64,000 nucleotides of DNA from an uncultured bacterium (GCA_937930175.1 CALGLP010000023.1:27205-91204), one strand, 5' to 3'. Shown: positions 1-54,167, counted from the stretch's first letter. Notes: generated by a model not told the origin, from the letters alone. Made by a program: numbers and translations.

Positions 1-1
1 A

Positions 2-3000: not shown

Positions 3001-6000
3001 AGCTATGTTTTTACTGTTGAACTCGTGGCTAAACTCGCTCTTTATCTACGACCCGTTGATGACTTCATCAATTCTTCCCGCTATTTTAACCCTTGGGCTG
3101 ATCGGCCCGACAGCGGTAAGCTTGTCGGGTTTATTCCAAGCCAGCACTGTCAATAACGCGGGATTACTGGATGCGGGTGTTTGGCAATGGCTTGCGGGCT
3201 TCTGGCAGGAGCGCGGGGCTTTATCTCTATCCATGTCAGGATCTTTTTCATCGGGAAATTCCTTGGATCAGACTGTTTCGTCATCTTTGATCGACCGCAT
3301 CTCAGGGCCGAACGCAGTCATTCGGGATTTCGAGATCAACGATGACTGCATGACTCTGACGGCGCAACACAAAGGGGTTACTGTTAAGGTCAGGATCGCG
3401 CATAAGTTATGCACGGTTATTTCGCTGGGTGCACGCAACCATAGTAAGCTCAACTCTATTCCGGCAGAAGCTAATCTTTTGAGGATTAAGGATATGGTGT
3501 TCGACAAAGAAGGTTTCGAATCCCAACATCCCTCCTTTTATGTAAACAAGGCCCGGGAAACCCTACAGGACGATCGATGGTGGCATATCGACGGGATTCG
3601 CGAGATTCCCATTGCCTCGATCTTTCGCATGCACAATACCTCCATTTTTAAATATTTCAGTATTTTGAGCCGGATCAACGATGAGGAATCGACTTGGAAT
3701 AAATTCATCCAAGAATTTCCGATCGATATCTTGGATATAGGATATGGGCAATATTTTATCCTTAAAGGAATGCATCGTTTTGACCTGGCTTACCTCTTGG
3801 GTCTTCAGGACGGGGAAATCCCCTGCAAAGTCTACCGGGTTAAAGAAAGTCGTATGAGCGAGAATGTCATGATCGGAAGCCTTTGGCAGTATATCGAAAT
3901 GCTTCAAGATGAGCTGGGCCCGAAGGATTTTAGAGAAAGATTCTTTAAGCATTCGATTGGAAAATTGGTAAGTGCGGTTGATTGCCTGAAGCCCGTTGCA
4001 TCTTACGAATATGAAAAGGCAAGCAATACAGTGACCATGACTTTTCCTTTCGTGGAGCTTTCGAATAAAAAAACGTCCTTAAAGAATCAGAACTCTAAAA
4101 TGCAGTATCTTTTTTGTCTTATTGCGGTTTTGACCGACATTGATCCTGAAGGGTTGCTTCCGTATGTTCTTGAAGAAGGGGCTAGGTCAGGGATTTTCCC
4201 CGCGTTAATAAGCTCTTCGCTCAAAACAGCCGCCCGCGCCAGCGCGCCGGGGAGTTATAAGACTCCGACGTTTATCCGCTCCTTGATCGGCTTACGGCAG
4301 AAATATTTCCCAGACAAACCCGGGCAGGCTGCGAAGCAGGGTCTTCATGAAGGCGTGAATGCGATCTGCGATTTCATTTTTGTGTTTTTTCAGGAGATCA
4401 AATTCAAGGGTTCTGTTGATATCTTCAAACCGCTGTTCTTTCAATACGACTTAAGTGACTTGTTTCAAACCCTTGCGGCTACGCCGGCAGATATCCTGAC
4501 GCCGCGCAACAAAATCGTTCAGAAGATCATTCGAGCCTTTTTAGCGATCGAGACAAAAGATTTCGAAAAGTCCTGGGCAGCGCTCTTGGAGACCGCGCGG
4601 GATTGCGTTAATCAAAAAAACAAAGATTTGGGCACATTTTGTTTCTCGACGATGCTGGATCTTTTTTATTCCTTGGTCCAGACTAAGGATATAAATGACT
4701 TTAGCATCAAGATATCGTGGGTTGTGGAAGGGCTGAAGAACACCAAGGATGTTGTGGCGCTTGCCTTGGGCGTTAACCTTATTGATGTTTTGCGCGCCAC
4801 CCTGGCGAACGAAATGGCCCAGGGGAAGAAAAGACCCTTGGCGGACCATCAGATCTTTGCGATCATACTCGAGAAAGACATCGCCCTGCGCGCAGACGAG
4901 ACGATTAAAAAGACGCTGGAGCAGGATCCAGAGTTTTACAATCAGGTCGCTTATAGCGATGAAAAGCTCGCGGCTTTGTATGATCAACTCGGGCAAGTGT
5001 ACCTGTTCATCGATCGGTATGCGCCGGAGATGGTCCGAAAAGCAGAAAAGGTTACCAACCAAGCGCTTTGGCTTGTGCCGGATCATGAGCCCTATTTGAT
5101 CCATTTGATCGATATTCATCTTCGTCAGGCAGGATTTTCTATCTTGGAAGGGGATTTTGTAAGCGCGTACGCCCGCTGCAGCGAAGCTGTTCGCCTGGAT
5201 GGTTTTGTTATCAAGAATAACGGCCAAAGCCAAGTGCCATTGATCCATTTTTATTCCGTGATCCTGGAAGTTCTCGATCCGGCGGGCGAAGGGGAGCGGG
5301 CGGCCAACACTTTTTGGCAGGAGGTTTTACCGGTGTTCCGGGATGAAGACCTGGTAACGGTGTTTAATCGCGTCGTTCCCCAAGCGCAGGAGGACACATC
5401 GCGTCAGAGGGCGGTGGCATTTTTTGCGGATCATTTTAAACTTTTGGGTCATGATTTAGACGATTATGCCAAGGCAGCTAAGTTTTTAGGTCAAATTGCG
5501 GATAGTCAGACCTGTGCTGCTTTGCAGGAGCACGCCAAAGATTTGTTTGAGCAAATCATCAGTAAAGGGGATTATACGGTGGCGGTTGATCAGGCGGATA
5601 TTCTCGCCAGGTTAGGGGCGCCCCGCAAGCAAGTGGAGGCCTTGAATGCTAAAGCAAAAACTTTATCGCGCCTTTGGACGGATATTCTGAAGGCTGAGAG
5701 CAGCGGTCAGCATGAAGGCGCATTGAAGAAAGCCGAACAGTTGCTTAACCAAAACTCCGGAGATGTTCGCGCTCAGAAAAAATACCAATGGCTGAAAGCT
5801 GAGATTGCAGCAGCCCAGAATCGGCAGAAGATGATCACAGATATTGAAAGCTTTCTGCGTAACGCGAACAATCAGGCGCAAAAACCGGATGAAGACAGCA
5901 AGCAAAAGGCGCGCAAGAATCTATCGAGGGTCGGGGAAATGATCGCCGGGCTTGATCCTGAAAAGGCAAAGACATATGTTGGGCGCATAGCCGCCATCGA

Positions 6001-9000
6001 AGCCCTTTTGATAGCGCAAGAAAGCGAAAGCGACGACCACGCTGAGATCAAAAAGTCTAAAAATGAAGAGCCTGCAAAAAACAAGGCGCCGCCAGCCCAA
6101 ACGACAGAGCCTGCTCCTACCGCAAAAGACCTTCCTCCGTCCAAATCCACTGTTGAAACAAAAAGTATCCGTATATATTTGGCCAGCGATATCTGGACCA
6201 CTTTGCAACAAGGACAACGCTTAGAATTATACAATCGTTTTCTTGGTTCGATCAAGTCATTAGCTAATCGCATCCTTGGCCAGCAACATCATTATAAGAT
6301 TAAAGATATTACCCGTGGATATCCTGTGAATCGTATCCATGTCGGCAAAATCCATCATTTTGCGTACACTGTTTCTATCTCGCAAGAGGATGGGGCGCAA
6401 ATATGGCTATTTTTTGATTACGAGAAAAGCCAAGGGAACAAAGGATATAAAAGGCTAGCTGATAGGCAGGCGCTTGATTATCTTTTTACAAATTTTGATA
6501 AGATTTTAAGAGACGCGGTTCTTGTTTATGAAACATCCTCCAGCGCTTTGGGTTTTGGCGACGCGCGGGTTGCATCGAGGTGCGCTTCGTCTACACCTCA
6601 GAAAAAGGTCTATCCTTTGCTATTAAGCACCGAAGAGCAAGCCTTTTCTACAAAGACTTTTGGAGAGAGCTATTTATCCGAAGCTATTGCGATTGACACA
6701 ACGGCTTTATCAGCCTCTCGCGAACAAGGCGCTGATAGACTGAACAAGATTGCTAACGCAATCTTGACATATCTTACGCAGCGCGGGCCACCAGAATTTG
6801 CCACCGATGTTAAGGCCGCATTGTTGTCCACAAAGATATTTTTTACCAATGATCTCCTCCTGCTTCAAGCAAAAGACTCCTTACCTTATATCGCTATTAC
6901 CGAAATAATCACGAAGCAAATATTTTTCCATACACAGTATCTTCAGTTTCCATTGTATAAGCAAATAGAGATTTTCTATTATGCCCTTGTCGGTTGTATG
7001 ATGAAGACAGCCTTGACTCGAGAAGAGGCAGAGGCAGACACGATTATTTTTATTTTGGAATATTTGTTTAAGACACGTCCTGAGCTGTGGATTGATCTTA
7101 ATCTCCTTGCGCAAAAGCTACAGGAAGGGTTGAAGGTTAACATAATCAAGCATGCTGGCAAGAAATTGATCTTTTATTCGCCAACAAAAAGGTGGATTGT
7201 TAAGATTAACTTAGAGCCAGATTTTGCTTTTGAGAAAGAAAAAGCATTTTTTGAAAAACACAATCCGCTTGAAGGCGCGCACATGGCTTATGCGAACAAT
7301 GAAGCCAAGTTTCTCGTTTTCAGTAATGTGTCTTATGACGGAAGGCTTAAGGATCTTTTTTCCTATTTGCACAGCGGGCAGATCAGCCTTCAAGAGGCAA
7401 AAGACGCTATCTGTGGTTATGCCTTGGTTCTTGCGAAGATACACGATAGCCGGATGGACATTTTGGATGAGGGTATTTATCTTCCGCAAGATTTTGATTC
7501 TCAGCTTGAAAGGGCATTAAATCGGTGTAAGTATTTGGCCGACCAAGGCTATCTCGATCTTCCTTCACGAGAGCAAATTATTGCAGCACATCACGATGTT
7601 CGCGACGATCAACTCGTCATGCATCATGGCGACCCAGGACTTACGAATTTTTTTGTTGACCCCTGGACGAGGGAAATAGGTGCGGTCATTGATGGAGAAG
7701 CCAGCTCACGTGGCGCGCGTAGCAAGGAATTGGCGAAAGTGATTGTCACGCTTATTGACGCTCAGAAAAATAGCCCCTTTCTTATTCAGAATTTTTATTC
7801 TTTGTTTATAGCTTTTCTTGATTCCTACTTTGATGCAAGTAAGGTTAATCCTTCGATTATTATGGCAGCGATACCGTATTATTTGGCGACAGAGCTTCTC
7901 TGGTATGCAGAAGAAACCCAGCGTATCCTTGGGAATAGGACGTGGGTCGCTTGGCGTCTTGAACTATGCCGATGGGCTTTGTCGATTGAGAAATTCACGC
8001 CAACGCGATTGATCGCTTTTTTGAGCGAAGGTCTTTCCTATGTGCGTGTAAACTCAGTTACGACTAAGATTGTCTCTCCTTTATTTTCTGAAGTAATGGC
8101 TTCGGGTTTTGAGATGAACCTGGAGCCTCATGAAACTGCTAAAATTTTTGTGTATGTCGATGTTGAAAACTCCTCGGAAAAAGTGATTTCCCTGATGCGA
8201 ATACCTGCTGAGCTTTGGAGTGATATTGATCAACAGGATGTTTGGAGAGGTGTTGGTCCGCTTGAATTGATTCATTATGGAGATGGAAAAGCTGTGTTTA
8301 TGGCTAAGGCTTTGGCAGAGATTTCCAATAGGCCGGAGTCTTTTTATCAGTTAACTTCGCGCATTGGTCAGGCGTGGGCGGATTTGCCTCGAGGGAACCT
8401 TAAGATAAAAGTTAGTTTAAGCAAGCTAGAGAGGAAGTCATGGGAAGAGTCACTTCAGGTTTTTTGGGGAGCGGTTATGCTGGATTGGGATGGAACAATC
8501 AAGGGGTATGGAAACAAGGCTCCTTCAATTTCTATCTTTGACCACATTGCTAGGCTTAATGCGGCAAAGGTTCCCGTTGCCATCAATACGGGGCGTAGGA
8601 AGGCAGAAGATACTAGAGAAATCTATGACTTTTTTAAAGAGATAGGGGAGCGGCTCGGTGATCATTTTCATCCAGAGCTATGTTATTTTTATTTTAGCAC
8701 AGCTTCCCTCGCCTATGTTTATAACAACTCAGAGGCATTGTATCAGGCACACATCCAGGATGATTATTTGGCGCATGCTATGGACGTTCTAAGGCAGAAA
8801 CATTTTGATCCCTTTGTTAAGGATGTGGATATTGGCCAAGAGGCGATTAGTTTTACCTTTAAAGGTGCCTGCGATCGAGGGTTGTTTGCGGATCGGCTCA
8901 ACAGAAAGCTTTCCCAAAAGCCGGGTCTGGGCGCAACCTATACGGATGATTATTTTCAGGTCGGCATTTGTGATAAGCATATAGGACTACAGGACTTCTC

Positions 9001-12000
9001 GCAGCGCATCGGGGTGCCGATCGATTATATTTTGCGCATTGGAGATCAAGGACAGCCCTTAGGCGTTGATAATCCCATGATCAATACGAGAGGCGGGTTG
9101 AGCGTTAATCATTTTGATGTTTCTTATGTCTGGCCGCTTAGCACGATCAAAATTCTTGGCCTGAAGAGTGTTGATGGCGCCGAATGGCTTTTAAAGAATT
9201 TTAAGTTTAGATCACCGTTTGTTTCTTCAGCGCTCACGCAGAATAGGGCAGAAGCTTGGCCGTTCAGAGCCCCAGCTTCCAGCAATCTTTTGAACACGAT
9301 TGAGAAACGGCAGCGTATTGCGCAACACAACCGTGAGCGTTTTGGGTCGCTTGTACTTCAGGTCCTTGAAAAAATGTTGACGAGGGTTAATGAGGGTATC
9401 GTGCAAGAAGTGGAGAGGCGAAATCCAGAGCCTGGGGTTTTAAACGCTCTTTATGTTTTAAATGCCCGCGTGGCTTATTACTTAAGCTTTTTTGAAAGCA
9501 GCAAGGCAAGAGCGCAACCCTTGGCAAAATATATCCTTGGCGAACCGTATCCTCAGGCGCAGTTGATCGCCCTCCATGCCTTGCTGAATATTAACCCTCA
9601 GGATATGCAGGCACGCGCAGCACTTCATCAATTATACCAAGAGACCAAGGAGCAAGAGGAACAGCTTGAGAAAGATATTGAAAAGATAGATTCAGATTTT
9701 AGCCAGGGCCAGGAAAGCGGAGGCTTAACCTTCTTTGAGCTCAATCCAGACCAGGAGCAATTACTAAGAGATTTTTCTTTCGCCGAGGCCCAATTAAAGC
9801 AGTCTTTAGAAATCTTTGCCAAGCTTCACGATCTGCGTATTGTCTCAGAGATCCTTGAGAAAGTTCATTCGATAAATCCTCAGGAGCGCATACAAGGGGC
9901 GGAATTGATTATTGCTTTTGATGATCCTGCCTTTATTCCCATTTTGAAGAGCGAGGGGATATTGCCTATGGATGACCAAGCGAGCAAGCCGATCGAAGAG
10001 ACTCTTTCAATCTTTAAAACGAATCTTTATTTTTTAGAGGCTATAGGATTCTTAGGAGATCAGAGGTTTGTTGAGCAACAACTGATCGCATGGAAGCCAT
10101 TTTTTATCAAAGTCCGTAGAGCTTGGCTTTTGCATCCACACCCTGGGCTTGATGAGATCGTGGCCAAGAGCCTTTTTAGCCTCGGCCTTAGACAGAGAAG
10201 CGCTGTTGTTAAGAATATTCAGGACATATGGAGCAATCCTCGTTTGGCGCAAAAGGATGCTTTTCTAAGAACGATGATCGATGTTATCGCTAATCTTGGA
10301 TTGGTTGAGTATATGCAGGATATTGACCGGAAGTATCAGGTGATTTGTAAAAAAGAGGCGGTACTTCAGCGTGAGCGCCTGGAGCAAATTCTTTTGAGCC
10401 TGGGGCACCAAAGAGTTTCCGATCATTTTAATTGGCGGTTAAGTCAATACATTGAGAACCAAGGTGAAAGTACTGCGGCGGAGGCCAGGTTGATTCTTGA
10501 CAAGGTCGGCATGGTTATGCAGGCCTGTGGGTTTGCGGTGTCATCGTCGGGTGTGAAGGCAATAGAGCCTCAGGTGGACAGGATGAGCAGCACAGGCATA
10601 AAAAGCCGCAGGTCTAAAGAAGCAAAGAAGGTGGATTACGACCTTATTATGAAATTTCTTAAAGAGAACGATTTGCGAGCCTTAGGGGTATTTTTTGAAA
10701 AACATCGAGAGTCTTTTATAGGGTATCTAACGAACAGCTATTTTGGCTCTATGACTAAGGAAGATGCCGAGGATATTCTTCAGAATGTTTACATTAGAAT
10801 CATTCGTACGCGCGGCAATCTTAAGTCGCAATTTCACGGAAAAGATGATCCCTTGCCTTGGATTTATCCTATTTTGCGTAATGCCTCCTACACATGGCTC
10901 AAGCAGAAGTCTAAGATGAAAACAATTTCTTTAGATGAAGGGGATAGTAGTTTCGAGATTCCTGACGAGCCGGTTATACCTATGGATGAGCGAGCGCGAT
11001 TTGTCGTTCTTGCGCAAGAGATAAAAACATTGTTGAGAGCATTTGTTAAAGAGAAGTTACCTCCTGTGTACAGGCTTGATTTCACTTGGCATTATGATGA
11101 GGGATGGACGGATTTGCAGATTGCTAGTTTGCGAGGTGTTAGCAGAAACACTGTGAAATCCAATCTGCGCAAGGCGCGGCGTTTTTTATGGAAGCTTTTA
11201 GAAGAAGAGCTGCGAACACGTCCGGATCTGCGAGAGTATCTTGAGTCTCTTCCTCAGGGGCGGGGTAGAAAGAGGCATGTCTTTGGCAATATCAGACCCA
11301 AAGCTGTTTCTTGTCCGATTGTTGATCGAGCGTCTTCTATCATTTTGCCCGGCGCGGCGGAGGCAGGCCTTTTTGGGAACACAAAGCGTATTGCACAATT
11401 TGAGGATGAGGCTAATCGAAAGCTGAGAACTCCGATCGGCCTTGAGATAGAACTTAATCTTCCCGAAAGTTTCTGCGACGAAAAGAATCTAAAAAAGATT
11501 ATTCAGAGTCCTCGAGATCTTCGCAGGATGCAATATATTGATTTCCACCCTGACCATGCCTACAAGCTTCCCGAATTTAGTTTTGGTCATTCATGGAGCT
11601 TTAAAACGCAAATGTATTTGTGGGAGAAGATGAAGGATATTTTAAAACTTAGGGATAGCGATGTTAATTCGGTACAAATTAATCTTGGGATTCCTTTTGA
11701 TGTTTGGAAGAAATGTTCTCTGGTGCGGTTTCGCGAGGATGCACGGCTTTTGATGTTGGCGGATGTGGTGGCTTTTGTTAGCGATAAAAGGATCAAGGCT
11801 AAGAAGACTGATAAAGTTGTGAGCTTAGATTGGGCTGAACCTATTAATGGCAGAAAGTATGTCCGTATTGAATATGGTTTTGGCGATATTCAAAACTTAA
11901 GCAAAAGCGGACCTCTTGAGCAGAACGTTCATGGGGCACTGGTGGAATATCATAGTCATTATCAGCCTAAAAAAGATGATATTTCCTTATCTGATCCTAG

Positions 12001-39000: not shown

Positions 39001-42000
39001 TTTAAGAAAGTCATCAAAAACCTCTTCGCCGGCGGTTGACCCTGAAGGACTAACGATATTTTTATTGGGGAGAGAGGGGGTCTCTTCATCAATCGCCTGG
39101 TCTCTAGAGACGATTGTCGGAGGAGATTTAAATGCTCGTTATTTAAAACGTATCTGCGAAATTATTAACACTCATGATGATGAGGAAGAACCAAGGGACC
39201 ATGGGCGAGAAAAGGTGGCGTTCTTGATTGGGCCGGCCGCTGATTTTTCGACGGCATGGTTAGCGACTCAAGCTTTGAAGTTCATTTTTATTGAGAAATT
39301 GCCATTGCATGTCACGTTGGACACTGTCCTAAAGAGAAATATCCAGGAGTTGATGGAACATGCTTTTATGTTGAGCATGATGTCAGCGCTCGGATCAGGA
39401 GATTTGCCTAATTTCGATCTGTTTCTTTATATGAATGAAAAGAAAATTATTGATTTGTATTGTATGGAAAAAAGTTTTCAGGGCTTCATCACTGATGAGT
39501 TCTTGGGGATCTGTGGAGGCGTGTGGCCATTTCTTAAGAAGGAAATCGAGATTGCCACGCGCGATTCTTCTGATCATATCAGCCCTGCGGCAAGAGAGGA
39601 TGATCCCAGGGTTTTTGATTTGAATTTTAGACTAAACAACAGGGAACACTCCTTGGTTTTTATGGAAAAGACAGATGGATTGGACGTCAGCAATTATGCA
39701 AATTATCTAAGGCTCTTTGGTGGCGTTGATTTTATTATCATTAAGGCCGGCGATGTTTATTTAGAGAATAAGAAATTTTTGCTGCCTGGACAAATCGTTG
39801 AGGAGTTCTTAAGGCCCGGAGGATTTGTCATTCTCGACAGCAAGAGGGCTCTTCAGCAGGGCCAAGCGGTTCGCGATTTACTGATACCTGTGGAAGATGA
39901 CGTACTTTTGAAACTGGAAAGGCAAGGGGCTGTTTTTGGTTACAATGGTCCTCTTTATAATGAATCAAAGAGCGGGGCATATATTTTTAAGAAGAAAGGC
40001 TCCATATCTTCGGCGGTAGCTTCTTCAGTGCTCGATATTCCTTCGGGCCGGGGAACAAGCTTTAAGATTTTATTGCCAGTTGCCAAAGAAAGCCAACAGA
40101 AAGAATCTTTTTGTCTGACGGGTGTCAAAGAGGGCAGGGCAACCAAGTCTAAAAACTCCGGATCACCATTAACTTTGTCTACGATCTTCGTTCTAGGCCT
40201 GGTCAGTTTAATGGGGGCAAGCTTGGCGGGATTGTCTGAGCCGGGCGCGGTTGCTCATGTGGGATTAATGGACGCAGGCGCTTTGCAGTGGTTGGAGGGT
40301 TTTTGGTCAGAGCATGTGGCGGCGGTGTTGTCGGCGGTATTTCCTAATGGGCCGGGGGAAGGGGTTTTGGTTTATGGCGCCTTTGCTTCTTCTCACCTTT
40401 TTGTTCTTGCCCTTCTTTCTCTTCTCATCGGATCTTTAATTTTTATATTTTTATTCCATCGCAAAAATCACGACCAGATTGCTTACCCTGAGATCCAGGG
40501 CATGGATTTTATGTCGGTTGTACGTTATTTTTTGCCTCAGGGCGATCTGACCCTCACTGATGTCGGAGCCGGGAATAACCGTTTTATTGAATCAGTAAGA
40601 GAAGATCTAGATAATGCTTTTTCGCTTTTGGTTGGCTTTGATAACAAGACCCCGGGCTATAAAAAGTATTGCCCCCACTCCCAAGAAGTTATTTCCCTTT
40701 CTCTTCAAGAGGCAGCTGGAGATCCAGACTATCAAGAATATTCTAACGTTGTTACCGTAAATGCGCCAGACGTGCATTTTTACGATGATCTTGTTCCTTG
40801 CGTGATGTGCTTGCTCAAACGGCAAGGCGTTGGCTTGATTTTTGTGAAGTTGGCTCCCAAGGATGGTTGTTATATCAAGAATCTGATGCATCAGATGCGG
40901 ATTTATGGGGCACAGCCGATTTTGCTCAAAAACCTTCAAGGTTATCCCAAGACTTTTTATACTGATGACAGAACTCCGGTCGTTTTGGGTGTAGTTCACT
41001 GGAGGCAGAAAGGATCTTGTTCGGCGAGCGTCACAGAGGATATGACTGTTGCTAACGCAGACGGCCTTTCTGCGCAAAAGAATTGTTTTTTTAAAACGAG
41101 ATGGCTGATCGCGTCTATCACTTGTACAAAAGTTCTATTGATGACTTTTTCTTCATTGATCAAAAAAAATAAAGTTCTTTTGCTCAGTGGTTTATTATTC
41201 TTTTTTCCTAACGCGGCGCTGGCTTTTGTTGGGACCGGCCCTGAGGATTCCTTGGGAAGCCTGCCTGAGGCCAGTTATTGGCTAGTAGAATGGATGTTGA
41301 GCCAACCGCTCTGGCTGGCGCTGGGCAAGATCTTGACGCCCGTTCTCGTGATCGCGCTTTTTTTAGCCAGGGCCAGGCGATGGAGGGTCTCGATCCCTGA
41401 GCCGGTTCAAGAGGCGTTGGGGATTCAGCCGAAATCTCGCGCGTCCGCGTCATCCAGCAGGCACGGATTGTTTTTCTCATCCTTGGGACCTTCCAACGCC
41501 TTTGATGATCAGGCTTACGAGACGCTTGTTAACAAGGGTTTTATCGTTCAAACCATTGCTCAGAGACGGTTTCTTTTTATTCTTCGCGTTTTTGACAAAA
41601 CATCTCTTGTACGCCGGCATCCGCAGAAGGTCTTTATGATCGATATAAGAGATATTGATGACCGAAAGCGTGTTGCACGTTTTGATTTTGTTTTTGATCT
41701 TGCTGCTCAAAGAGCTGTTGCAGATACGGCTTATGTCGAGTATCGCTTTTTAAAAGGATACGAGGAGTCGTTAGATCATCTTCATAGCGAGGGATATCGC
41801 GTTGCCCTTAAGGTTCTTGATAAGGCGCGCGATGTTTTCTTTTCGACTCGAGGATTAAGCTATCCTGTGAGCATCGATATTGCTGACGATTATCGCAGTT
41901 CAAAGAAAAAAGGCAATTATCAGTTTTTCACAATTCTTTTTAAAATATTCTTTTCTTTGGCTCATCAGCAGGGCATACAATCCTTTAAAGCGGTGCCGCT

Positions 42001-45000
42001 CAGAAAATCTCTTTTTGATCGGATCTTCGAGTACATCATTCTTCCTAAAAAGATAAGCCTTTTTCAATTTTATCAGAGAGCGATCCCTTTGCCGTATCAG
42101 AAGAAGTGGTCTTGGGATTTATACCCGTATTTAATTTTTGATCTTTCGGATATGCCTTCTGCGCTTGTCTTTTCTTTAAGTCCTGCCGGCACCAAGACTG
42201 AGGCGTTAACAACGTCTTCGGTGATACACCCAAAGAGCGATTCTGTCTATGCTCTGGAGGTCAGGGATTTCGACGGCGCGCCTGAGGCCCGGAACAAAGC
42301 TGCTAGGCTGCGAAACGCTCTTCTGAAGGCTGATATCCCTTTTGTTCAGAAGAAAAGCTTTGAAGATCTGCCCTGGAAAGCAATCACCAAGTGTATTGGA
42401 GAGCATGAAGGCCCTGTGATGACCTGGATCATTTTCGGGGGACTGTTTCGGGCTTGTTTACGAAAAACGATCAAAAAGATTATAGATCTTTGCTCTAAGC
42501 TATCGGGTCAGACGACGAGGATCGTTTTGCCTTTGTTTGCTATGAATCACCTTTATCGTTATGAATTGACGAGCGAGTCAAGCGAATTTCGTGCTTATAT
42601 GCAAGTTAGTGAAATTCCTCGCTTGATCGAGGCGCATTCCAAGGAAGGCTTGATCACAACAGGGAAAGAACCTTGGCTTAATGCGGATGGATATTATTTT
42701 ATGTTTGACTATGACGCAACCAAACAGCAGGTCGTGATCCGTTGTAATGGACAGATTTTACGTGTTTTAGGAGACGAGGCTTCAACCAAGCATACTGTGA
42801 TTCTTGATTTTGTGATGACATTGGAGGGTTTTAATAAAGTTATGGAACAAACCCAGATTACGGCTGTGAATGTCGATGGTAAAGAGGTAGGCAAGTTAGC
42901 GCAAGAGCAAGAATTCGGATCCCCATTAGTACTTCCAACCATTTTAGTCTTAGGCCTCATCGTCTCTGCGCTGGCAAGTTTGCTGGGCTTCTCGGAGCCC
43001 GGCGCGGTTGCTCACGCGGGATTGGGGGATGCGGGGGTTTTGCAGGGGTTGGCGGGTTTTTGGTCAGAGAATGTGGCGGTAATGTTGTCAGCAATATTTA
43101 CCAATGGGCCGGGGGATTTGGTAGCGATGAGCTTAGGGCTTTCTTCGGTTTCGCCTAGCCTTTTATTATTTAAGGAAGACAATGCTATTGGACCAGGCCA
43201 TTTAGTTAATGAGCACGCGCCTTTGGAATTAACAGACATGATTCAGCCAGGGTTCTTGACTCCTGGACTGGTCGTTGTTCATAGCGATGATATTCTCCAG
43301 GAAGTACTCTATATATACAGCGAATATAATTTTGTGGGGGCTGCAGGAACGCTTGCGGTGTATCTAAAGCGTTCACGCTGGATCAATCTTTATCCGCGGA
43401 TATTCGCCTATCTTGATAGAGTTCTTCCTGAATCTTATGAAAGGATTGTTTTAGTTAGATCCTTTGAAGACCCAGAAAGGGTAAAGCACGAGATCCTTCA
43501 TGATCTTGTTGAGTTATCTTCACAAGTAGACTCCCGTCCTTTTGAAAGTCTTATTGAAGCTTTCAGTAAGATTATGGAAGAGGATAAAAATTTCAATGAA
43601 AAATTTCATGAATTCCTGTGTCCTAATGGAGCATGTGACACAGGGATGAACGTGGAGCATTTTATTTGTTATTTCTTTTCTGGCCAAAGGTCTCACGATT
43701 GCTCCGAGGAATACCTTTCCTTTACTCGTACTTATCATTATGAAGAACTTTATGATTATTTTTTGCATCAAATGCCGCGCGAAATTATTGATTTATTTGA
43801 TCAGCTTGGTTTAGTCTGGCCGGATGGTAGTGATGTTGATCAAAATGCTGGGGACACGCAAGAAACATTTAGCATATCTAGTCCCCGGATTGCTCATCGT
43901 ACGGGTGTGTGGGAGCTTGAAGAGGCGGGCAAGCCCAATGATCCCAGGGAAGATGTTTCTTCGCCGATCTCACGGGAAGACTTCATCGATAACTATCTGA
44001 CATCGCTCGGCAAGCATTGGGCAGACTTAGCGCCGAAGATGAAGCCCCTTCTACTTAAAAGGTTGATAAGTCTAGAAGCCGGGGCTGATTATTATGTGCA
44101 AGACAAAGAGGCTTTTGCCGCGCTTGCCGACCTCGGCATAGCGAGTGCCCATATGTTCATGCTGTTGTTGCGCACTAGGGCGCGTCCTGACGTCGAAAAA
44201 GAGGTCCTTCTTGAGAAAAACATCATCGAGGGTAACTATGAGCCTGTATTTCAATATTTCGTCAATTTATATAAATATCCCAATGAAAGCGACACCTTTT
44301 CTAGGTATCAATCTGCTGTTGTCAGATATGCGATCCTCCTTGAGGGCGATACGGTCGTCAAAGCCCCGCGTGATATTGTTGCCTACATTAAGGACATTGT
44401 CATTAACGAGTTTATAGGCTCAAGGGAAGAAATCTATTGTGGATCAGCTTACGGCCAGTGTGACCTTTATCCTCGGGCTGCTGTTAATGAGGCGCAGCAA
44501 TATTTTGAACGACATTTTCTTGAGTATTATGGAGTGGCTTTTCCGGTATTGCTCGCCGATGTCGTTGTTTTCACGAAAGATGTAAATAAATGTTTTTCGT
44601 CTCAATCAAAGATCGGCGTGGCTTATTCCTCGCACGACTCCTCTAAAATATATCAAAAGGTTGTTCCTTCTCTCATAAGGAAGATCTTCCACGAAGCCCT
44701 GCATTTGGCTTTGCCGTACAGCTTTAATGATTTTTACGCCTTGAGAATTTTTGATGAGGGTCATATAAGATATGAAACGGACGAATTTACCTGGTTCGTC
44801 GATCCGCAGAGTTGCCATGTTGACGATGGCATAGCCGACGATATATATTTTCCTCATCGCCGCTTATTCGTATCTCTGCAGGAAATCGTCGGCAGAAACA
44901 ACATCATTAAGATGAGAATGGAAGGAAAGATCGGCCCGTTGGTCGCCGCCTTGGGCGCTTACGGGAATGAATTGATGATGCTGTTTGAGTATGTTCAGGC

Positions 45001-48000
45001 TACGAAGAAAGAAAGGCTGGGCCTTGAAGTTGGCAGCGGCTACACGGAGACAGCGCCCATCGACGATTCCCAAGAGCTCCTTTTGAATAGGAATTCTCCG
45101 GAGATGCTTCTTCAATTTATCGAAAAGGAGGAAGCGGTCCTAAGTGCTCAACGGCCTGATTGGCAGGAGCGTAATAAAAAAGGAACAATATTCGATCCGT
45201 GCTTTAAAGGTCGGCTAGCGGCTTCCTCGCCAATTCTTCCTTCTGTTCTTATGCTTGGCCTGATCGTCTCTGCGCTGGCAAGTTTGCTGGGATTGTCGGA
45301 AGTCAGAACCACTATTCACGCCGGAATTCTTGATATAGACCCTATGGACTTTGGCTATATTTTGCGGAGTTTAGTCAGAATCGGGTTGTTCACCGCAGGC
45401 GTAAGTTTGTTATTTGAGAATATTATCTTAAACTTCTCTGGAAATGTTTATGAGAAATTCTATAAAAAGACGCGCATGGGCATTCTAAACGCCCGGGATA
45501 TTGTGCATGCCGGTGAACTGGGGGCGCGAGGATTTTTTATCGGGTATCAACGATGGTTTAGACGCATCGGCGCAAAAGATCTCACCAAGAATTTTGTGAT
45601 GTTGTTAGCGACAGGGAAATCCTGGGAGATCGCGTATCAGAAGATCGCGGATAGCTTAGATTCTTGGGAGACTCCGGAAACCCAGCAATGGCTTAAGAAG
45701 CAGGGCATTGACCCCAGGATCAAGCCAGACCCCAGCCGCATGGTTGTTTTTCATTTGGATACGGTGATCCCGCAACAAAGAGAGGACTATTTTTCCTTCT
45801 CAAGGACCCTTGGTATTGTGTGTGATACGTTTCATATCCCACAAGCGAAAGCGAATCGTTTCTTTTGGTATGGGGATTGGACGTTGGATGATCAAGGTAA
45901 TCTCGTACAGATGTCCCCCGAAGAATTTTTTTCTCTTAAAGACGATATTCACTCTCGTGGGTTTAAGATCAAGGATTTTTTATCAGGGCAGATGCCTTGC
46001 GAGGACGCACAATATCGCTTTTTGTCCGCCATGGAACAGCAACGACAGAAGACCTCTGATCAATATCGTGCATTGGGCGGCGCTGATTTTGTGGCATACA
46101 GTTTTGGGCCGTCGTATCAGGGTAAGGGGCATGTGGCCTTTGTGGAATCCATGGATGAGGTACGGGATCAAGCTTTCATGGATTTGGGCGGGTATCATTT
46201 TGCCGCCAGTCAAGCCTCTCAAAATGGAGGTTTCAGCCGCACCGTTGGCAAGCACGGTTTTGTGACTTTTTCGATCGCGGATATAACGTTTAATCCTGAG
46301 GCGTATTTAGTGGGCATTGTGACGGATCATCATAAATCTTCAACGGTGCGTATGGCTGTTGAAGGAGATATCGCAAAGGATTTTCCGCGCTATCCGGCAA
46401 CCGGTTTGCAGAGATCTCAGGGGGTCTTGATCTTGACTGATGAATCCGCGCGTGATCTGCGCGACCGAAGGCATCCCTGGGACTTTCGTGTACTAAAAAA
46501 ACCTGAATGGACTGAAGAAATGCGCCGGACATTTTTGATCCGCTTGTCTCAAGAAGCTGGCAAGCCTTTGACACAAATCATGGATAAAGATTTTATTGAT
46601 CCCGAAAAAGATCTTCCTGGACCCGTCCTAAGGATACGGCGGAAGAATTTAAAAATATTCAAAAGTTTTGGATCCTTAAAGTCGCAGGGTCAGGCGTATA
46701 TTCAGTTTGTCATGGATCATATGACAACCACGGCGCCGCAGGCCTTAGCGGAGAAACTTTGGGGGAGAGAGCGCATTCATTCTCTTGAGTTCATCGCGGC
46801 TTCGCTCGATTTTTTAAGAAATCAATATGAACAATGCCTATGTTATGGTCATGATGGATCCAATATCCAAGAGCTGATCCAGTCAGAAGAGAAATCATTA
46901 GCGTCAAAACAAATTACTATTTTATTGAAAGATCCTCATCCTGATGATAGTTTTCTCGCCCTGCTCATTGGTTTTCTTAGAAATCTTATTGCCAAGGGTT
47001 ATGTTAGAGCCTATGCCATTTGCGCGACCACAGGGGCCGAGGCGGTGAGCGATGTATTGGTTGTGCAATTTCTAGAAACCATGCGCTCCTGGGATCAAGA
47101 AACCATCAACCAAGCCTTTGATCTTGATCGTGGAGAAACAACGAAGCAATTGTTACAAGACGCCATGGCCCAAGAAAAACCCAGTGATGTTTTAAGTTAT
47201 GATGTGCAAAGTAAGATGACCGCAACGGGATGGCATTTACGAACAAAACTTATTTTTAATTATTTGTTCGTTAAGCGATTCGAATATCAACATGCCCCGC
47301 CAAAACAAGAACTTCAAGAATTTTTAGACAAGTTGATCGCCGAGATCGAGGCCAAGCCAGATTGGGGAGCTCGGGATAGTGAAGAGATTGTCTATATGAA
47401 AAGCATTGTTCGCGTGATCGAGAATAAAACTGCTATGATGGCCCTAGGGCTTCCTTATGAAAACATTTTTGATCCGATGAATTTTTCTTGGTATCAGTCT
47501 GGGGTCAAGGATGGGACAGCGCGCGATCAAGACGTAGAAAGGCTGATCAATGTTATTAAGGGCATAGGACGCCTGGATATGATCATTGGTAATGGGGAGG
47601 GTTTTCGGTCTTACGATACGCATGCGACCGTTGAAGCCATGGTGATTGCGGCGTTGTTAAAGTTGTTGGAGCAAAAATGGATCGACCCGAAAACGTTTCG
47701 GTATTTCACTTATGAAGGCGTGTGGAAGAGAAAGTTGCTAGAAGAAGCAAATCTCACTGTTCTTTATTCTCAAGAAGAGATCGAGGAATTTGATCGGATG
47801 TTCTTAAATCTTTATCCATCTCAAGTGCCTGCAGAAATGCTGGATGCTTCTCAGGAAAGAGTGATGCTGTTTTCACAAGCCGTTGTTCAACATGGGAAAA
47901 AAACAATCAAAGAATTGAGAAGAGTTTTAGGGTCTCACAAGGTTGACGAGGTTCTGCCTCGCGCTAAAATGGCGCTTCATTTTAGAGTTTTAAGGTTGTC

Positions 48001-52918: not shown

Positions 52919-54151
52919 ATGTCAAAATTAAAATTATTGTTCTGGCCGGAGCTTCTTGCTCCTGCCGGAGACTGGGCGAGCGTGCGCGCAGCTGTAGGCG
53001 CTGGCGCAGACGCAGTTTATTTTGGTGTTAAGACGTTGAATATGCGGCATGAAGCGTCGAATTTTGACCTTTTGGAAATCAAAAAGGTCATGGCGTTCTT
53101 GCATGAACATGGGAAAAAAGGATATTTGACGGTTAACACGATTATTTTGGAAGAGGACCGGGCTCCTTTAAGAAAGATCTTTGAGGCGGCATCGAAAGCT
53201 TCAGCTGATGCCGTTATTTTATGGGATACGGCGGCTCTCACCCTTGCCAAAGAATACGGGCTTGCTGTTCATCTGTCCACGCAGGCTTCGGTGGCTAACA
53301 GCGAGGCCGTTGCCTTTTACGCCGCGCAAGGCGCGGCGCGCATTGTGTTGGCGCGTGAGTGCACACTAAAAGATATTCAGAACATTGTCCAAGAAATTAA
53401 GAAAAGAAAGATCGCCTGCCAGATCGAGACCTTTATTCATGGCGCGATGTGCGTGAGCATTTCGGGCCGATGTTTTATGTCAGAGTTCTCGTTTGACAAA
53501 TCCGCCAATAAGGGAGAGTGTCTTCAGCCGTGTCGACGAGAATTTGCGATCCGCGATGTGGAGGATGAAGCTGAATATATTTTAGGCAACGATTATGTCC
53601 TAAGCCCTAAGGATCTCTGCACGATTGATTTTATTGATGAGCTCATCCTAAGCGGTATTCATGCGTTTAAGATCGAAGGCCGTATGCGTTCTCCGGAATA
53701 TATTCGGGTTGTGGTGGGCGCGTATCGCAAGGCGATCGAGGCTTTTTATCAAGGTATTTTAACTGTGAAGCTAAAAAGAGAGCTCAAGGAAGGTTTGCAA
53801 AAAGTTTATAATAGGGGATTTTCCTCCGGGTTTTACTTTGGCCGGCCAGGGGTGAAGGATATGAGTCGGGGCTTGGGGCATACGCACGAGAAAGTTTATA
53901 TCGGTGAGGTTAAGAAATTTTATGCCAAGATCAGCGTCGCGGATATTCGCGTTCAGAGTGGTGTCTTGAACAAAGGGGACACGGTCCTTTTTATAGGCAA
54001 TAAAACGCCGGCGCTAGAGGCCAAGATTGGCGATATGCAATGCAATCGTGTTTTTATTGAGCAAGCCCCCAAAGGGACTGCGGTTGGCGTTAAGCTCCCC
54101 TTTGCGGTTAAGCCTAAGGATAAGGTTTTTTTGTGGCAGAAGAAAAAATAA
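52919..54151 (+). CDS. Peptidase U32 family protein (collagenase-like / YhbU-PrtC family)
   Basis: N-terminal ELLAPAGDWASVRAAVGAGADAVYFG and IETFIHGAMCVSISGRCFMS are typical U32 signatures. 410 aa. Confidence 0.8.
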   Translation: MSKLKLLFWPELLAPAGDWASVRAAVGAGADAVYFGVKTLNMRHEASNFDLLEIKKVMAFLHEHGKKGYLTVNTIILEEDRAPLRKIFEAASKASADAVILWDTAALTLAKEYGLAVHLSTQASVANSEAVAFYAAQGAARIVLARECTLKDIQNIVQEIKKRKIACQIETFIHGAMCVSISGRCFMSEFSFDKSANKGECLQPCRREFAIRDVEDEAEYILGNDYVLSPKDLCTIDFIDELILSGIHAFKIEGRMRSPEYIRVVVGAYRKAIEAFYQGILTVKLKRELKEGLQKVYNRGFSSGFYFGRPGVKDMSRGLGHTHEKVYIGEVKKFYAKISVADIRVQSGVLNKGDTVLFIGNKTPALEAKIGDMQCNRVFIEQAPKGTAVGVKLPFAVKPKDKVFLWQKKK

Positions 54152-54167
54152 TAGCGCAGGAGAGGCC

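What the first reader, a model, noticed from the sequence alone, without database searches (positions are those of the whole stretch)
3055..45345. A ~60-aa hydrophobic motif recurs six times along the giant protein and is conserved at the DNA level
Copies lie at 3055-3235, 30378-30480, 33465-33665, 40160-40375, 42918-43125 and 45225-45345. They share the pattern [GS]SP(L/I)LP-x-(L/I)-x-LGL(I/M)-..-A(L/S)(A/S)S(L/F)-G-x-S-(E)PGA-...-AGL-x-DAG(V/A)-x-x-WL-x-GFW-(S/Q)-E-(H/N). Copies share nucleotide identity (29-nt identity between e and f; 36/39 nt between b and c; ~80% over 120 nt between d and e). This argues for recent intragenic duplication or gene conversion, or selection on a shared functional element. 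The hydrophobic LGL...ASL stretch looks like a TM helix followed by an amphipathic W-rich segment. The PEP-utilising module sits exactly between copies b and c, suggesting the motif marks module boundaries. It could be a membrane-insertion hairpin, a docking element, or a processing site.
Basis: seen in the sequence. Interest (0 to 1): 0.75.

Follow-up and report, generated by a model that had tools for sequence, protein, structure and literature searches.

The report
Repeated membrane-hairpin connector in giant protein
A 70-100-residue hydrophobic segment really does recur six times inside one bacterial protein of more than 18,000 residues (apparently Omnitrophota); it most likely pins a chain of enzyme modules to the cell membrane, and it starts with a four-residue signal that marks many module junctions and gives testable candidates for where such giant proteins might be cut.

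Summary
The giant ORF (window 2-52867, open at the window's 5' end, at least 18,100 aa) holds four full copies (a, c, d, e) and two partial or degenerate copies (b, f) of one motif, all in the same frame.

The ORF is a multi-enzyme giant protein. Its only informative relative is a protein from a Candidatus Omnitrophota genome assembled from a metagenome (a MAG). Such proteins, studded with transmembrane helices, have already been described.

Each copy has three parts:
- a TM-grade helix H1;
- about 42 residues almost free of K/R but normally acidic, containing a Trp/Gly-rich helix H2 that is not amphipathic;
- usually a second hydrophobic helix.

Copy c begins exactly where free-standing PEP-synthase-like proteins end. 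Copy e sits at the edge of a roughly 2,600-aa segment missing from the relative. Copy d is conserved in that relative.

Conservation is mainly at the protein level, but five pairs keep more identical synonymous codons than expected. The e/f/d similarity is mosaic, which points to intragenic duplication plus gene conversion. There is no RNA structure, no Pfam or PDB relative, and no copy outside the gene.

Best reading: a paralogous membrane-hairpin connector. Cleavage at the motif is not excluded.

Side finding: the tetrapeptide (I/A/V)-S-S-(S/P), which opens copies c and f, occurs 21 times (2.8 expected) and clusters at module ends.

The parts
2..52867 (+). Giant ORF. 17,588 codons are listed from 101, and the frame is open back to the window's first bases, so the gene starts upstream of the window.
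   Evidence: P0001 is a 99.9% identical fragment that extends about 514 real residues further upstream. Many unrelated Pfam/NCBIfam modules lie in one frame.
3059..3292 (+). Motif copy a (aa 987-1064), full copy. Its H1 is aa 990-1012. Its partner hydrophobic helix lies upstream at aa 964-982 (nt 2990-3046).
30377..30511 (+). Motif copy b (aa 10093-10137), partial. It has a hydrophobic stretch and the C-terminal LAGFGAEHLHELLVFA part; the middle of the motif is missing.
   Evidence: HMM i-E 1.3e-4. BLASTP against c gives 63% over 27 aa, E 1e-5. Nucleotide identity with c is 36/39.
30809..33463 (+). PEP-synthase / rifampicin-phosphotransferase-like module (aa 10237-11121) lying between b and c. 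It has the size of a whole free-standing protein.
   Evidence: PPDK_N and PEP-utilizers hits. Full-length NCBIfam models end at aa 11122. The nearest relatives are free-standing 780-900-aa proteins that end at the equivalent residue.
33461..33721 (+). Motif copy c (aa 11121-11207), full copy with a second hydrophobic helix at aa 11189-11207. It opens with ISSP at 33464-33475.
40154..40453 (+). Motif copy d (aa 13352-13451), full copy with a strong second TM helix at aa 13433-13451 followed by HRKNH. It is the orthologue of the single copy in the related Omnitrophota protein.
   Evidence: The AF2 model of this copy gives three helices at low confidence.
42911..43165 (+). Motif copy e (aa 14271-14355), full copy. 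It forms the left edge of a block that is absent from the relative.
45218..45475 (+). Motif copy f (aa 15040-15125). The N-terminal half is well conserved and the C-terminal half is degenerate. It opens with ASSP.
   Evidence: HMM i-E 5.5e-11 and 2e-30 in the second model, which includes f itself. It shares a 29-nt exact run with e.
42908..50770 (+). Roughly 2,600-aa segment (aa ~14270-16890) present here but absent from the colinear Omnitrophota relative P0002. It begins with motif e and contains f.
   Evidence: The colinear blocks P0002 2147-2654 ~ 13790-14255 and P0002 2664-3348 ~ 16898-17580 are contiguous in P0002.
30797..30808 (+). Junction tetrapeptide ISSS (aa 10233-10236), at the position where Met1 of free-standing PEP-synthase-like proteins would be. 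It is one of 21 [ILVMCA]-S-S-[SP] sites in the ORF.

Best explanation
The motif is a family of paralogous connector modules of 70-100 residues inside a multi-enzyme giant protein of at least 18,100 aa, from a bacterium that is probably an Omnitrophota.

Each copy has three parts:
- (i) a hydrophobic helix H1 of about 20-23 residues, rich in small residues (L-G-L...A-L-A-S-L-x-G), that inserts into the cytoplasmic membrane;
- (ii) a segment of about 42 residues with almost no Lys/Arg and normal Asp/Glu content, holding the conserved G-L-x-D-A-G...W-L-x-G-F-W-x-E-H helix H2 and an N-G-P-G turn, which sits on or in the outer face of the membrane;
- (iii) in most copies a second hydrophobic helix that brings the chain back, followed by Lys/Arg.

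The hairpin therefore leaves both neighbouring modules on the cytoplasmic side and tethers them to the membrane. Those neighbours include methyltransferase-like modules, the PEP-synthase-like module, and the segment leading to the CDF transporter and the response-regulator receiver. The conserved H2 residues suggest a specific contact, with other copies or with a partner, beyond simple anchoring.

The copies arose by intragenic duplication as the gene grew by adding modules, and they still exchange short tracts by gene conversion.

Shown here: homology of the copies, hydrophobicity, charge asymmetry, position at module ends, conservation in one relative, and excess synonymous identity. Inferred: membrane insertion, topology and the tethering role.
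For: - Six copies, statistically secure.
- H1 has a Kyte-Doolittle mean of 1.75-2.5 and a crude summed insertion energy of -0.7 to +2.8 kcal/mol in every copy.
- The 42 residues after H1 hold 5 K/R among 294 residues pooled over seven copies, against 12.5% in the whole protein. D/E stays at 29/294. By the positive-inside rule (established knowledge) this is what a translocated loop looks like.
- A second hydrophobic helix lies within 60 residues in c, d, f and the relative's copy, and marginally in e. In a it lies upstream. Lys/Arg follow it in c, d, f and the relative's copy.
- AF2 predicts three helices for copy d, at low confidence.
- Parity argument (inference): the PEP-synthase-like module and the N-terminus of the CDF transporter should both be cytoplasmic. 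Between them lie c-H1, c-H3 and one more hydrophobic pair at aa 11762-11829, an even number.
- Copy c starts at the exact residue where full-length PEP-synthase-like models and free-standing homologues end.
- Copy e is the first element of a roughly 2,600-aa block missing from the relative.
- Copy d is conserved in the relative at 47-49% identity, against 33-39% for the two colinear blocks downstream of it, although the most N-terminal block reaches 50%.
- Synonymous identity is above expectation in five pairs, and the blocks are mosaic: e matches f 29/30 in one block and matches d in the others.
- Published surveys describe Omnitrophota giant proteins as strings of enzyme domains with a TM helix every few hundred residues. 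About half are read as inner-membrane-anchored with cytoplasmic domains (bioRxiv 10.64898/2026.06.07.730766; bioRxiv 10.1101/2023.11.21.568195).
Against: - No trained topology predictor was available. The hydropathy and insertion-energy sums are crude, and the energy scale was taken from memory.
- The AF2 model is unreliable (mean pLDDT 59, pTM 0.27).
- Copies a and b lack a convincing downstream second helix, and that of e is marginal, so a single-pass reading that flips the side of the membrane is not excluded for them.
- H2 is not amphipathic, so whether it lies on the membrane, dips into it or packs elsewhere is open.
- An anchor alone would not need the conserved D-A-G / G-F-W-x-E-H residues.
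- Only one relative was available for comparison.
Confidence: 0.55

Rival explanations
1. Processing site. The giant product is a polyprotein, and the motif, or the (I/A/V)-S-S-(S/P) tetrapeptide at its start, is where it is cut. The cut could be made by signal peptidase I after the small-x-small triplet at the end of H1 (A-L-A|S, A-V-S|L), by an intramembrane protease, or by a soluble protease at the Ser-Ser junctions. This could coexist with membrane anchoring.
For: - Every copy has a small-x-small triplet near the C-terminal end of H1 (read directly from the sequences).
- The junction tetrapeptide is 7-8 times over-represented: 21 against 2.8 expected in the giant protein, and 4 against 0.5 in the relative.
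- The residue before it is I, A or V in 19 of 28 SS[SP] sites; all six ILVMCA residues together account for 21 of 28, P 2e-5.
- Its Ser codons vary, so the signal is at the protein level.
- It clusters at independently defined module ends: 8 of 21 within 30 aa, 1.45 expected.
- It brackets the PEP-synthase-like module at exactly the residues where free-standing homologues start and end.
- Cleavage of Omnitrophota giant proteins has been proposed, but no sites are known (10.1101/2023.11.21.568195).
Against: - There is no direct evidence of cleavage.
- No peptidase domain was detected in the ORF at Pfam E <= 0.01.
- The hydrophobic stretch of H1 continues past the small-x-small triplet, unlike the polar region before the cleavage site in a typical signal peptide.
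- Most tetrapeptide sites have no hydrophobic helix upstream.
- Short Ser-rich stretches are also ordinary flexible linkers.
- The boundary test was designed after the pattern was seen.
Confidence: 0.2
2. Soluble docking or bundling element. The helices are not in the membrane but pack against each other or against neighbouring modules, folding the long chain into a compact assembly.
For: H2 carries conserved specific residues. Its moderate hydrophobicity and low hydrophobic moment would also fit a buried helix in a bundle. Small-residue spacing in H1 favours helix-helix packing (read).
Against: - H1 reaches TM-grade hydrophobicity in all copies, and d's second helix scores KD 2.96.
- The K/R-free but acidic loop followed by K/R after the second helix is a membrane-topology signature.
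- The protein class is reported as overwhelmingly membrane-associated.
Confidence: 0.1
3. Selfish or regulatory nucleic-acid element. The repeat is an in-frame mobile DNA insert, like Rickettsia palindromic elements (known to me from the literature, not checked here), or an RNA structure, and the peptide is a by-product.
For: Local nucleotide identity between copies. One copy is present or absent between relatives.
Against: - Third codon positions are the least conserved.
- RNA folding z-scores are 0.0, +0.99, +0.56 and -0.92.
- There are no copies in other frames, on the other strand or outside the gene.
- There are no Rfam hits apart from a tRNA.
- The presence/absence difference involves about 2,600 aa, not the motif alone.
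Confidence: 0.03

Closest known systems
Multi-enzyme, TM-helix-studded giant proteins of Omnitrophota (Nielsen & Lui 2026, bioRxiv 10.64898/2026.06.07.730766, class 1 'multi-enzyme metabolic clusters', TM-only topology; West-Roberts et al. 2023, bioRxiv 10.1101/2023.11.21.568195)
   Same: - One ORF of more than 10,000 aa tiled by many unrelated enzyme and regulator domains. The methyltransferase, HATPase, response-regulator and PPDK_N domains found here are all listed as common in those surveys.
- A hydrophobic helix every few hundred residues.
- Sequence that is largely unique to its lineage.
- Repeats whose nucleotide similarity has mostly decayed.
   Different: Those surveys count TM helices but, in the text I searched, do not describe a conserved recurring connector sequence: the terms motif, linker and hairpin occur 0 times. 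Here six helices belong to one homologous family with conserved non-hydrophobic residues, placed at module ends.
Internal membrane hairpins and signal sequences of flavivirus polyproteins (context from PMC6756788, abstract only; the rest from general knowledge)
   Same: A single long translation product in which hydrophobic segments between functional modules set the membrane topology and lie next to processing sites.
   Different: That is a viral system in the eukaryotic ER with proven signal-peptidase and viral-protease cleavage. Here the organism is a bacterium, cleavage is unproven and no protease has been identified.
Rickettsia palindromic elements (in-frame repeated DNA inserts; my own knowledge, not checked in the paper library)
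   Same: Short repeated segments that are read in frame inside coding sequence and share nucleotide similarity.
   Different: There is no palindromic or structured fold. The copies are confined to one gene and one frame, and selection is visible at the protein level.
Pfam 2-TM hairpin and small membrane domain families (PF23143, PF11026, PF14012)
   Same: Two-helix hydrophobic units.
   Different: There are only chance-level scores: E 6.5, 1.3 and 0.033, all far below the gathering thresholds. No PDB sequence matches at E <= 10.

Membership tests
Omnitrophota giant multi-enzyme protein (class 1, Nielsen & Lui 2026) | Length of at least 10,000 aa in a single ORF | tested here: met
   17,588 codons without a stop in the window, with the frame open at the 5' end. 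About 514 further residues are seen in fragment P0001.
Omnitrophota giant multi-enzyme protein (class 1, Nielsen & Lui 2026) | Many distinct Pfam families tile the chain, with none dominating by copy number | tested here: met
   ECF sigma factor, ARMT1-like, PIG-L, enoyl-CoA hydratase, methyltransferase, PPDK_N plus PEP-utilizers, cation-efflux, response regulator, a PRK02122-like module and a weak HATPase_c hit.
Omnitrophota giant multi-enzyme protein (class 1, Nielsen & Lui 2026) | Host belongs to phylum Omnitrophota | tested here: inconclusive
   The only relative of the protein's unique blocks is MDD3375220.1 from a 'Candidatus Omnitrophota bacterium' MAG. Its downstream U32 gene is syntenic and 67% identical.
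Omnitrophota giant multi-enzyme protein (class 1, Nielsen & Lui 2026) | TM helices scattered at roughly 2% of residues, with no signal peptide (TM-only class) | tested here: inconclusive
   About 25-30 distinct hydrophobic segments appear in the Kyte-Doolittle scan, which is a compatible density. The true N-terminus lies outside the window, so a signal peptide cannot be judged, and DeepTMHMM was not available.
Archaeovorin (West-Roberts et al. 2023) | HEAT repeats, glycosyltransferases, SecA_DEAD and C39/S8 peptidase domains | tested here: not met
   None of these appears at Pfam E <= 0.01. Only PPDK_N and a weak TPR hit are shared. I therefore do not file it as an Archaeovorin.
Cleavable Sec signal peptide / signal peptidase I site | Positive n-region, hydrophobic core of 7-15 residues, then a polar c-region with small residues at -3 and -1 | tested here: inconclusive
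   Small-x-small is present in all copies. Two or more upstream K/R are present in five of the seven copies compared (b, c, d, e, f; none in a or the relative's copy). The hydrophobic stretch continues for 4-8 residues past the triplet. No trained predictor was available.
C-terminal sorting signals (PEP-CTERM, LPXTG and relatives) | A signature motif followed by a TM helix and a basic cluster at the protein's C-terminus | tested here: not met
   The copies are internal. The E-P-G-A comes after the helix, not before it. No basic cluster follows H1. The definition of these families is from my own knowledge.
In-frame mobile repeat (Rickettsia palindromic element type) | Palindromic or structured DNA, with copies in many genes and in intergenic DNA | tested here: not met
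   Folding z-scores lie between -0.92 and +0.99. All copies are in one gene and one frame.
Any curated protein family or solved structure | Significant profile match | tested here: not met
   Nothing significant in Pfam at E <= 10. No PDB match at E <= 10. Among 1.84 billion representative proteins there are only two true hits.

The most novel reading that the evidence does not exclude
The giant ORF is a true bacterial polyprotein with a junction grammar. The tetrapeptide (I/A/V)-S-S-(S/P) marks the ends of gene-sized modules and is the cutting or hinge signal. The hydrophobic motif is a self-contained 'membrane staple' cassette written in the same grammar: copy a is bracketed by ISSS and VSSS, and copies c and f open with ISSP and ASSP. 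Recombination between these cassettes is how such genes gain and lose modules, as with the roughly 2,600-aa block that starts at copy e. If so, the products of Omnitrophota giant genes could be predicted from sequence.
Probability: 0.15. Interest if true: 0.85.

Novelty: new variant of a known kind. Interest (0 to 1): 0.5.

Why it matters
Giant genes of 10,000 to 147,000 codons are now known to be common in Omnitrophota. How such chains are inserted in the membrane, whether they are cut into pieces, and how the genes grow are all open questions; the 2023 study states that no information about cleavage points exists.

This locus offers two concrete handles:
- a conserved hairpin family whose topology can be tested with a few reporter fusions;
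- a short junction signal whose positions coincide with the ends of gene-sized modules, which gives proteomics exact peptides to look for.

The comparison with the one available relative also shows a module block gained or lost exactly at a motif copy. Together with signs of gene conversion between copies, this suggests a route by which these genes expand.

Tried and rejected
- Word-indexed protein search with the motif alignment, and with the stretch from copy d to copy e, returned nothing. It missed even P0001 and P0002, which the exhaustive search found (against 52). That tool appears to be swamped by common hydrophobic words, so these two nulls carry no weight.
- A degenerate DNA pattern for A/V-G-L-x-D-A-G-x4-L-x-G-F-x2-E matched all four full copies in the window. 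It gave only chance hits in 185,579 species genomes and in JGI metagenomes: 8 and 7 single matches, none with the hydrophobic helix or any HMM score beyond the pattern itself. The pattern was too strict, since it would also miss the genuine copy in P0002. This spent both large scans.
- RNA-element idea: rejected.
- Mobile in-frame DNA element: rejected.
- Known sorting signals: rejected on motif order and position.
- Amphipathic-helix reading of H2: rejected.
- A PDB sequence search to fix the C-terminal end of the methyltransferase-like module before copy b gave only weak hits to the methyltransferase core. That boundary therefore rests on resemblance only.
- Pfam at relaxed thresholds on nine flanking segments found nothing new.
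- AF2 of copy d with a six-row alignment gave helices at low confidence. I ran no fold search because the model is too poor to be meaningful.

Full report
**1. The observation**

The window holds one ORF of 17,588 codons (101-52867, + strand). Its frame is open back to the first bases of the window. I built an HMM from the four best copies.

| Copy | Residues | Window nt | Note |
|---|---|---|---|
| a | aa 987-1064 | 3059-3292 | full |
| b | aa 10105-10137 | 30413-30511 | partial, i-E 1.3e-4, not in the model |
| c | aa 11121-11198 | 33461-33694 | full |
| d | aa 13354-13429 | 40160-40387 | full |
| e | aa 14272-14348 | 42914-43144 | full |
| f | aa 15041-15078 | 45221-45334 | partial, i-E 5.5e-11, not in the model |

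- Pairwise BLASTP between copies reaches E = 4e-13.
- Six-frame protein and nucleotide profile searches of the whole window find no copy in another frame, on the other strand or outside the ORF.
- A second model, which adds f and the copy from a related protein, finds no seventh copy.
Random segment pairs of the same ORF share a longest exact run of 8.3 nt on average, with a maximum of 17.
- Copies a, c, d and e are full. Copy b lacks the middle of the motif. Copy f is degenerate in its second half.

**2. What the ORF is**

Pfam and NCBIfam find a string of unrelated modules in one frame:

| Module | Residues (aa) |
|---|---|
| Complete ECF sigma factor | about 3507-3705 |
| ARMT1-like phosphatase | 4554-4847 |
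| PIG-L | 5882-5959 |
| Enoyl-CoA hydratase | about 9454-9750 |
| Methyltransferase | 9901-9968 |
| PEP-synthase / rifampicin-phosphotransferase-like unit (PPDK_N ... PEP-utilizers) | 10243-11122 |
| Cation-diffusion-facilitator membrane domain | 12067-12268 |
| Response-regulator receiver | 12855-12964 |
| PRK02122-like module | 15315-15500 |
| Weak HATPase_c | 16236-16297 |

The downstream genes are ordinary bacterial housekeeping genes: U32 peptidase-family protein, ComM/YifB-type ATPase, L,D-transpeptidase, AccA, RlmN and a tRNA-Leu.

An exhaustive profile search of 1.84 billion representative proteins with the motif gives only two true hits.
- P0001 is a 99.9% identical fragment of this same protein. 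It continues about 514 residues upstream of the window, so the protein has at least about 18,100 residues.
- P0002 is MDD3375220.1, annotated as 'methyltransferase [Candidatus Omnitrophota bacterium]'. Its ORF runs off the end of its contig, so it is the C-terminal 3,354+ residues of another long protein.
- The other two listed hits are repetitive proteins that match only short stretches.

The window therefore most likely comes from an Omnitrophota genome. No output named the organism directly.

Two preprints describe such proteins as common in this phylum. They report multi-enzyme chains of 10,000-147,000 aa, 94% of them with TM helices or signal peptides. Nearly half are read as inner-membrane-anchored with cytoplasmic domains (10.64898/2026.06.07.730766; 10.1101/2023.11.21.568195). 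The terms 'motif', 'linker' and 'hairpin' do not occur in the 2026 text.

**3. Anatomy of a copy**

From the alignments, each copy reads as follows:
- an opening S-S-P or G-S-P;
- H1, about 20-23 hydrophobic residues with conserved small residues (L-P-x-x-L-x-L-G-L-x-x-x-A-L-A-S-L-x-G);
- S-E-P-G-A-V-x-H-A-G-L-x-D-A-G;
- H2 (V-x-x-W-L-x-G-F-W-x-E-H-V-x-x-x-L-S-x-x-F);
- an N-G-P-G turn.

Measured properties:
- **H1 hydrophobicity.** H1 has a 19-residue Kyte-Doolittle mean of 1.75-2.5 in every copy. A crude summed insertion energy is -0.7 to +2.8 kcal/mol (the scale was taken from memory of Hessa et al. 2005).
- **H2.** It does not reach that level and is not amphipathic. Its hydrophobic moment is 0.19-0.24, against a background mean of 0.25.
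- **Second hydrophobic helix.** It follows within 60 residues in c (aa 11189-11207), d (aa 13433-13451, KD 2.96), f and the P0002 copy. It is marginal in e. In a the partner lies upstream (aa 964-982).
- **Charge.** The 42 residues after H1 hold 5 Lys/Arg in 294 residues pooled over seven copies, against 12.5% in the whole protein. Asp/Glu stay at 29/294.
- **Flanks.** Lys/Arg precede H1 in b, d, f and the P0002 copy. They follow the second helix in c, d, f and the P0002 copy.
- **Structure model.** AF2 on copy d with the six copies as alignment gives three helices, but at mean pLDDT 59 and pTM 0.27. It shows only that the segment is helical.

**4. Position relative to modules**

- **Copy c.** Full-length NCBIfam models of PEP-synthase-like proteins end (positions 606/608, 567/568, 603/604) at giant residue 11122. 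Free-standing homologues of 780-900 aa end within a few residues of the equivalent point...V-D-G-x-x-G-x-I-x-I/V-L. Copy c starts there (I-S-S-P-V-L-P...).
- **N-terminal side of the same module.** The conserved F-G-G-K-A lies 15 residues after I-S-S-S (aa 10233-10236), the same distance from Met1 as in homologue P0032.
- **Copy b.** It lies about 100 residues before that point, just after a methyltransferase-like module. The end of that module I can only infer by resemblance (one search was uninformative).
- **Copies d and e.** P0002 is colinear with the giant protein. Its single motif copy (aa 2002-2079) matches d. The next block matches giant 13790-14255. The block after that, only nine residues later in P0002, matches giant 16898-17580. 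The giant residues ~14270-16890 are therefore absent from P0002, and that segment begins with motif e.
- **Conservation of d.** The P0002 copy is 47-49% identical to d and e. The two colinear blocks downstream of it are 33-39% identical, and the most N-terminal block (giant 3779-4040) is 50%. The motif is therefore among the better-conserved parts.
- **Scope.** Only six junctions carry the motif, five of them between residues 10,093 and 15,125. It is one kind of connector, not a universal boundary mark.

**5. Evolution of the copies**

- Third codon positions are 37-60% identical and positions 1-2 are 46-86% identical. Selection therefore acts on the peptide.
- Among identical residues, identical codons exceed the codon-usage expectation for c-e, d-e, e-f, c-f and b-c (P 0.0001-0.004). 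They do not for a-d.
- Similarity is mosaic. In nt 31-60 of the unit, e matches f 29/30 and d only 18/30. In nt 61-180, e matches d 21-27/30 per block and f only 6-17/30.
- The P0002 copy is equally distant from d and e (61% nt), while d and e are about 75% identical to each other.
- The simplest account is duplication of a d-like copy after the two lineages split, together with insertion of the block it heads, and later short-tract gene conversion between neighbouring copies.

**6. Nucleic-acid-level alternatives**

- RNA folding of the four full copies gives z-scores of 0.00, +0.99, +0.56 and -0.92.
- Rfam finds only the tRNA.
- Tandem-repeat search finds nothing relevant.
- An RNA element or a palindromic in-frame mobile element is therefore not supported.

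**7. Known families**

- Pfam at E <= 10 gives only chance-level hits.
- PDB sequences give none at E <= 10.
- Internal position and motif order exclude C-terminal sorting signals.

**8. A shorter signal found on the way**

Copies c and f open with I-S-S-P and A-S-S-P, and the PEP-synthase-like module is preceded by I-S-S-S.
- The pattern [ILVMCA]-S-S-[SP] occurs 21 times in the giant protein, against 2.8 expected from residue shuffles (maximum 8 in 500). It occurs 4 times in P0002 against 0.5 expected, and once in the seven other ORFs of the window against 0.5 expected.
- Of 28 S-S-[SP] sites, 21 are preceded by one of these residues (P 2e-5). These are mostly I, A or V and rarely L.
- The Ser codons are a mix of TCN and AGY. 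The signal is therefore at the protein level and is not a DNA scar.
- Eight of the 21 sites lie within 30 residues of module ends defined independently, by family-model ends and by the ends of blocks shared with P0002. Only 1.45 are expected, and no random placement in 20,000 reached eight. This test was designed after I saw the pattern.
- Examples of where the sites fall:

| Site (aa) | Position relative to a module or motif |
|---|---|
| 3480 | before the sigma factor |
| 4882 | after ARMT1 |
| 9775 | after the hydratase |
| 10233 and 11122 | on both sides of the PEP-synthase-like module |
| 12056 | before the CDF domain |
| 12994 | after the receiver |
| 13783 | before the block shared with P0002 |
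| 952 and 1059 | on either side of hairpin a |

- I-S-S-S-L-K-(T/N) occurs at giant 1370, at giant 9775 and at P0002 2680.
- A few more sites occur in other long proteins of the P0002 contig.

**9. Mechanism**

I read the motif as a membrane-hairpin connector: N-terminus in the cytoplasm, H1 across the membrane, the K/R-free acidic H2 segment at the outer face, and a second helix back.

This keeps both neighbouring modules cytoplasmic. That fits their nature (ATP- and SAM-dependent enzymes, a receiver domain). It also fits the even number of hydrophobic helices between the PEP-synthase-like module and the cytoplasmic N-terminus of the CDF domain. The parity argument is an inference, resting on family knowledge that CDF termini are cytoplasmic.

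The conserved polar and aromatic residues of H2 suggest an added specific contact. Insertion, topology and tethering are all inferred and none is shown.

The main rival, which could also be true at the same time, is that the motif and the Ser-Ser tetrapeptide mark processing sites of a polyprotein. A soluble bundling element is less likely, given the hydrophobicity and the charge pattern.

**10. Caveats**

- No trained topology predictor was available.
- Only one relative was available for comparison.
- The protein libraries evidently hold fragments, not full-length giant proteins: the full protein, with six copies, was not among the hits. Rarity of the motif therefore does not show that it is absent from other giant proteins.
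- The two large DNA scans used a pattern too strict to catch even the P0002 copy.
- The word-indexed searches missed sequences known to be in the collection, so those nulls carry no weight.

**11. Verdict**

This is a real, statistically secure intragenic repeat, and an undescribed connector family within an already described kind of protein. It is moderately interesting in itself. It becomes more interesting if the junction signal turns out to be general.

Noticed in passing
window, giant ORF aa 159-16015 (for example nt 2954-2965, 30797-30808, 33464-33475, 36266-36277, 41447-41458); L018 gene 117-10181: The tetrapeptide [ILVMCA]-S-S-[SP], mostly (I/A/V)-S-S-(S/P), occurs 21 times against 2.8 expected. 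In the Omnitrophota relative it occurs 4 times against 0.5 expected. Its Ser codons vary, and the sites cluster at independently defined module ends. It may be a junction, hinge or cleavage signal.
   Followed up: partly
window 1-100 and upstream of the window: The giant ORF is open at the window's 5' end. Fragment P0001 continues it by about 514 residues. The first five residues of P0001 and P0005 (MLFRS) and the last nine of P0001 (GRASCRERV) translate Illumina adapter sequence, so those contig ends are artefacts and the true start codon is unknown.
   Followed up: partly
window 42908-50770 compared with L018 about 8070-8110: A segment of about 2,600 aa (aa ~14270-16890) is present here. In the colinear relative it is replaced by nine residues. 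The segment starts with motif e.
   Followed up: yes
window 21848-23920 and 24974-26566; also 11345-12142 and 37055-37837: There are two other internal protein repeats unrelated to the motif. Residues 7250-7940 match 8292-8822 at 33-72% identity with further internal periodicity. Residues 3749-4014 match 12319-12579 at about 31%. The block at 3779-4040 is also the best-conserved block in the relative, at 50%.
   Followed up: no
window 10619-11215: A complete ECF-type sigma-70 factor (NCBIfam models covered from about position 2 to 161 of 165) is embedded in the middle of the giant ORF. That is an odd cargo for a membrane-tethered chain.
   Followed up: no
window 52919-54151; L018 13870-15111: A U32 peptidase-family gene lies just downstream of the giant gene here and two genes downstream of it in the relative (67% identity). 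The other neighbouring genes are not shared.
   Followed up: partly
window 54027-55844: The mechanical ORF overlaps the end of the U32 gene by 125 nt. In the public contig L019 the gene is called 47 codons shorter, starting 17 nt after the U32 stop. It has no Pfam match and no counterpart in the relative's locus.
   Followed up: no
window 62117-62177: A weak nucleotide-profile match to the motif (E 0.045) lies just after rlmN. It has no protein-level support and is probably chance.
   Followed up: no
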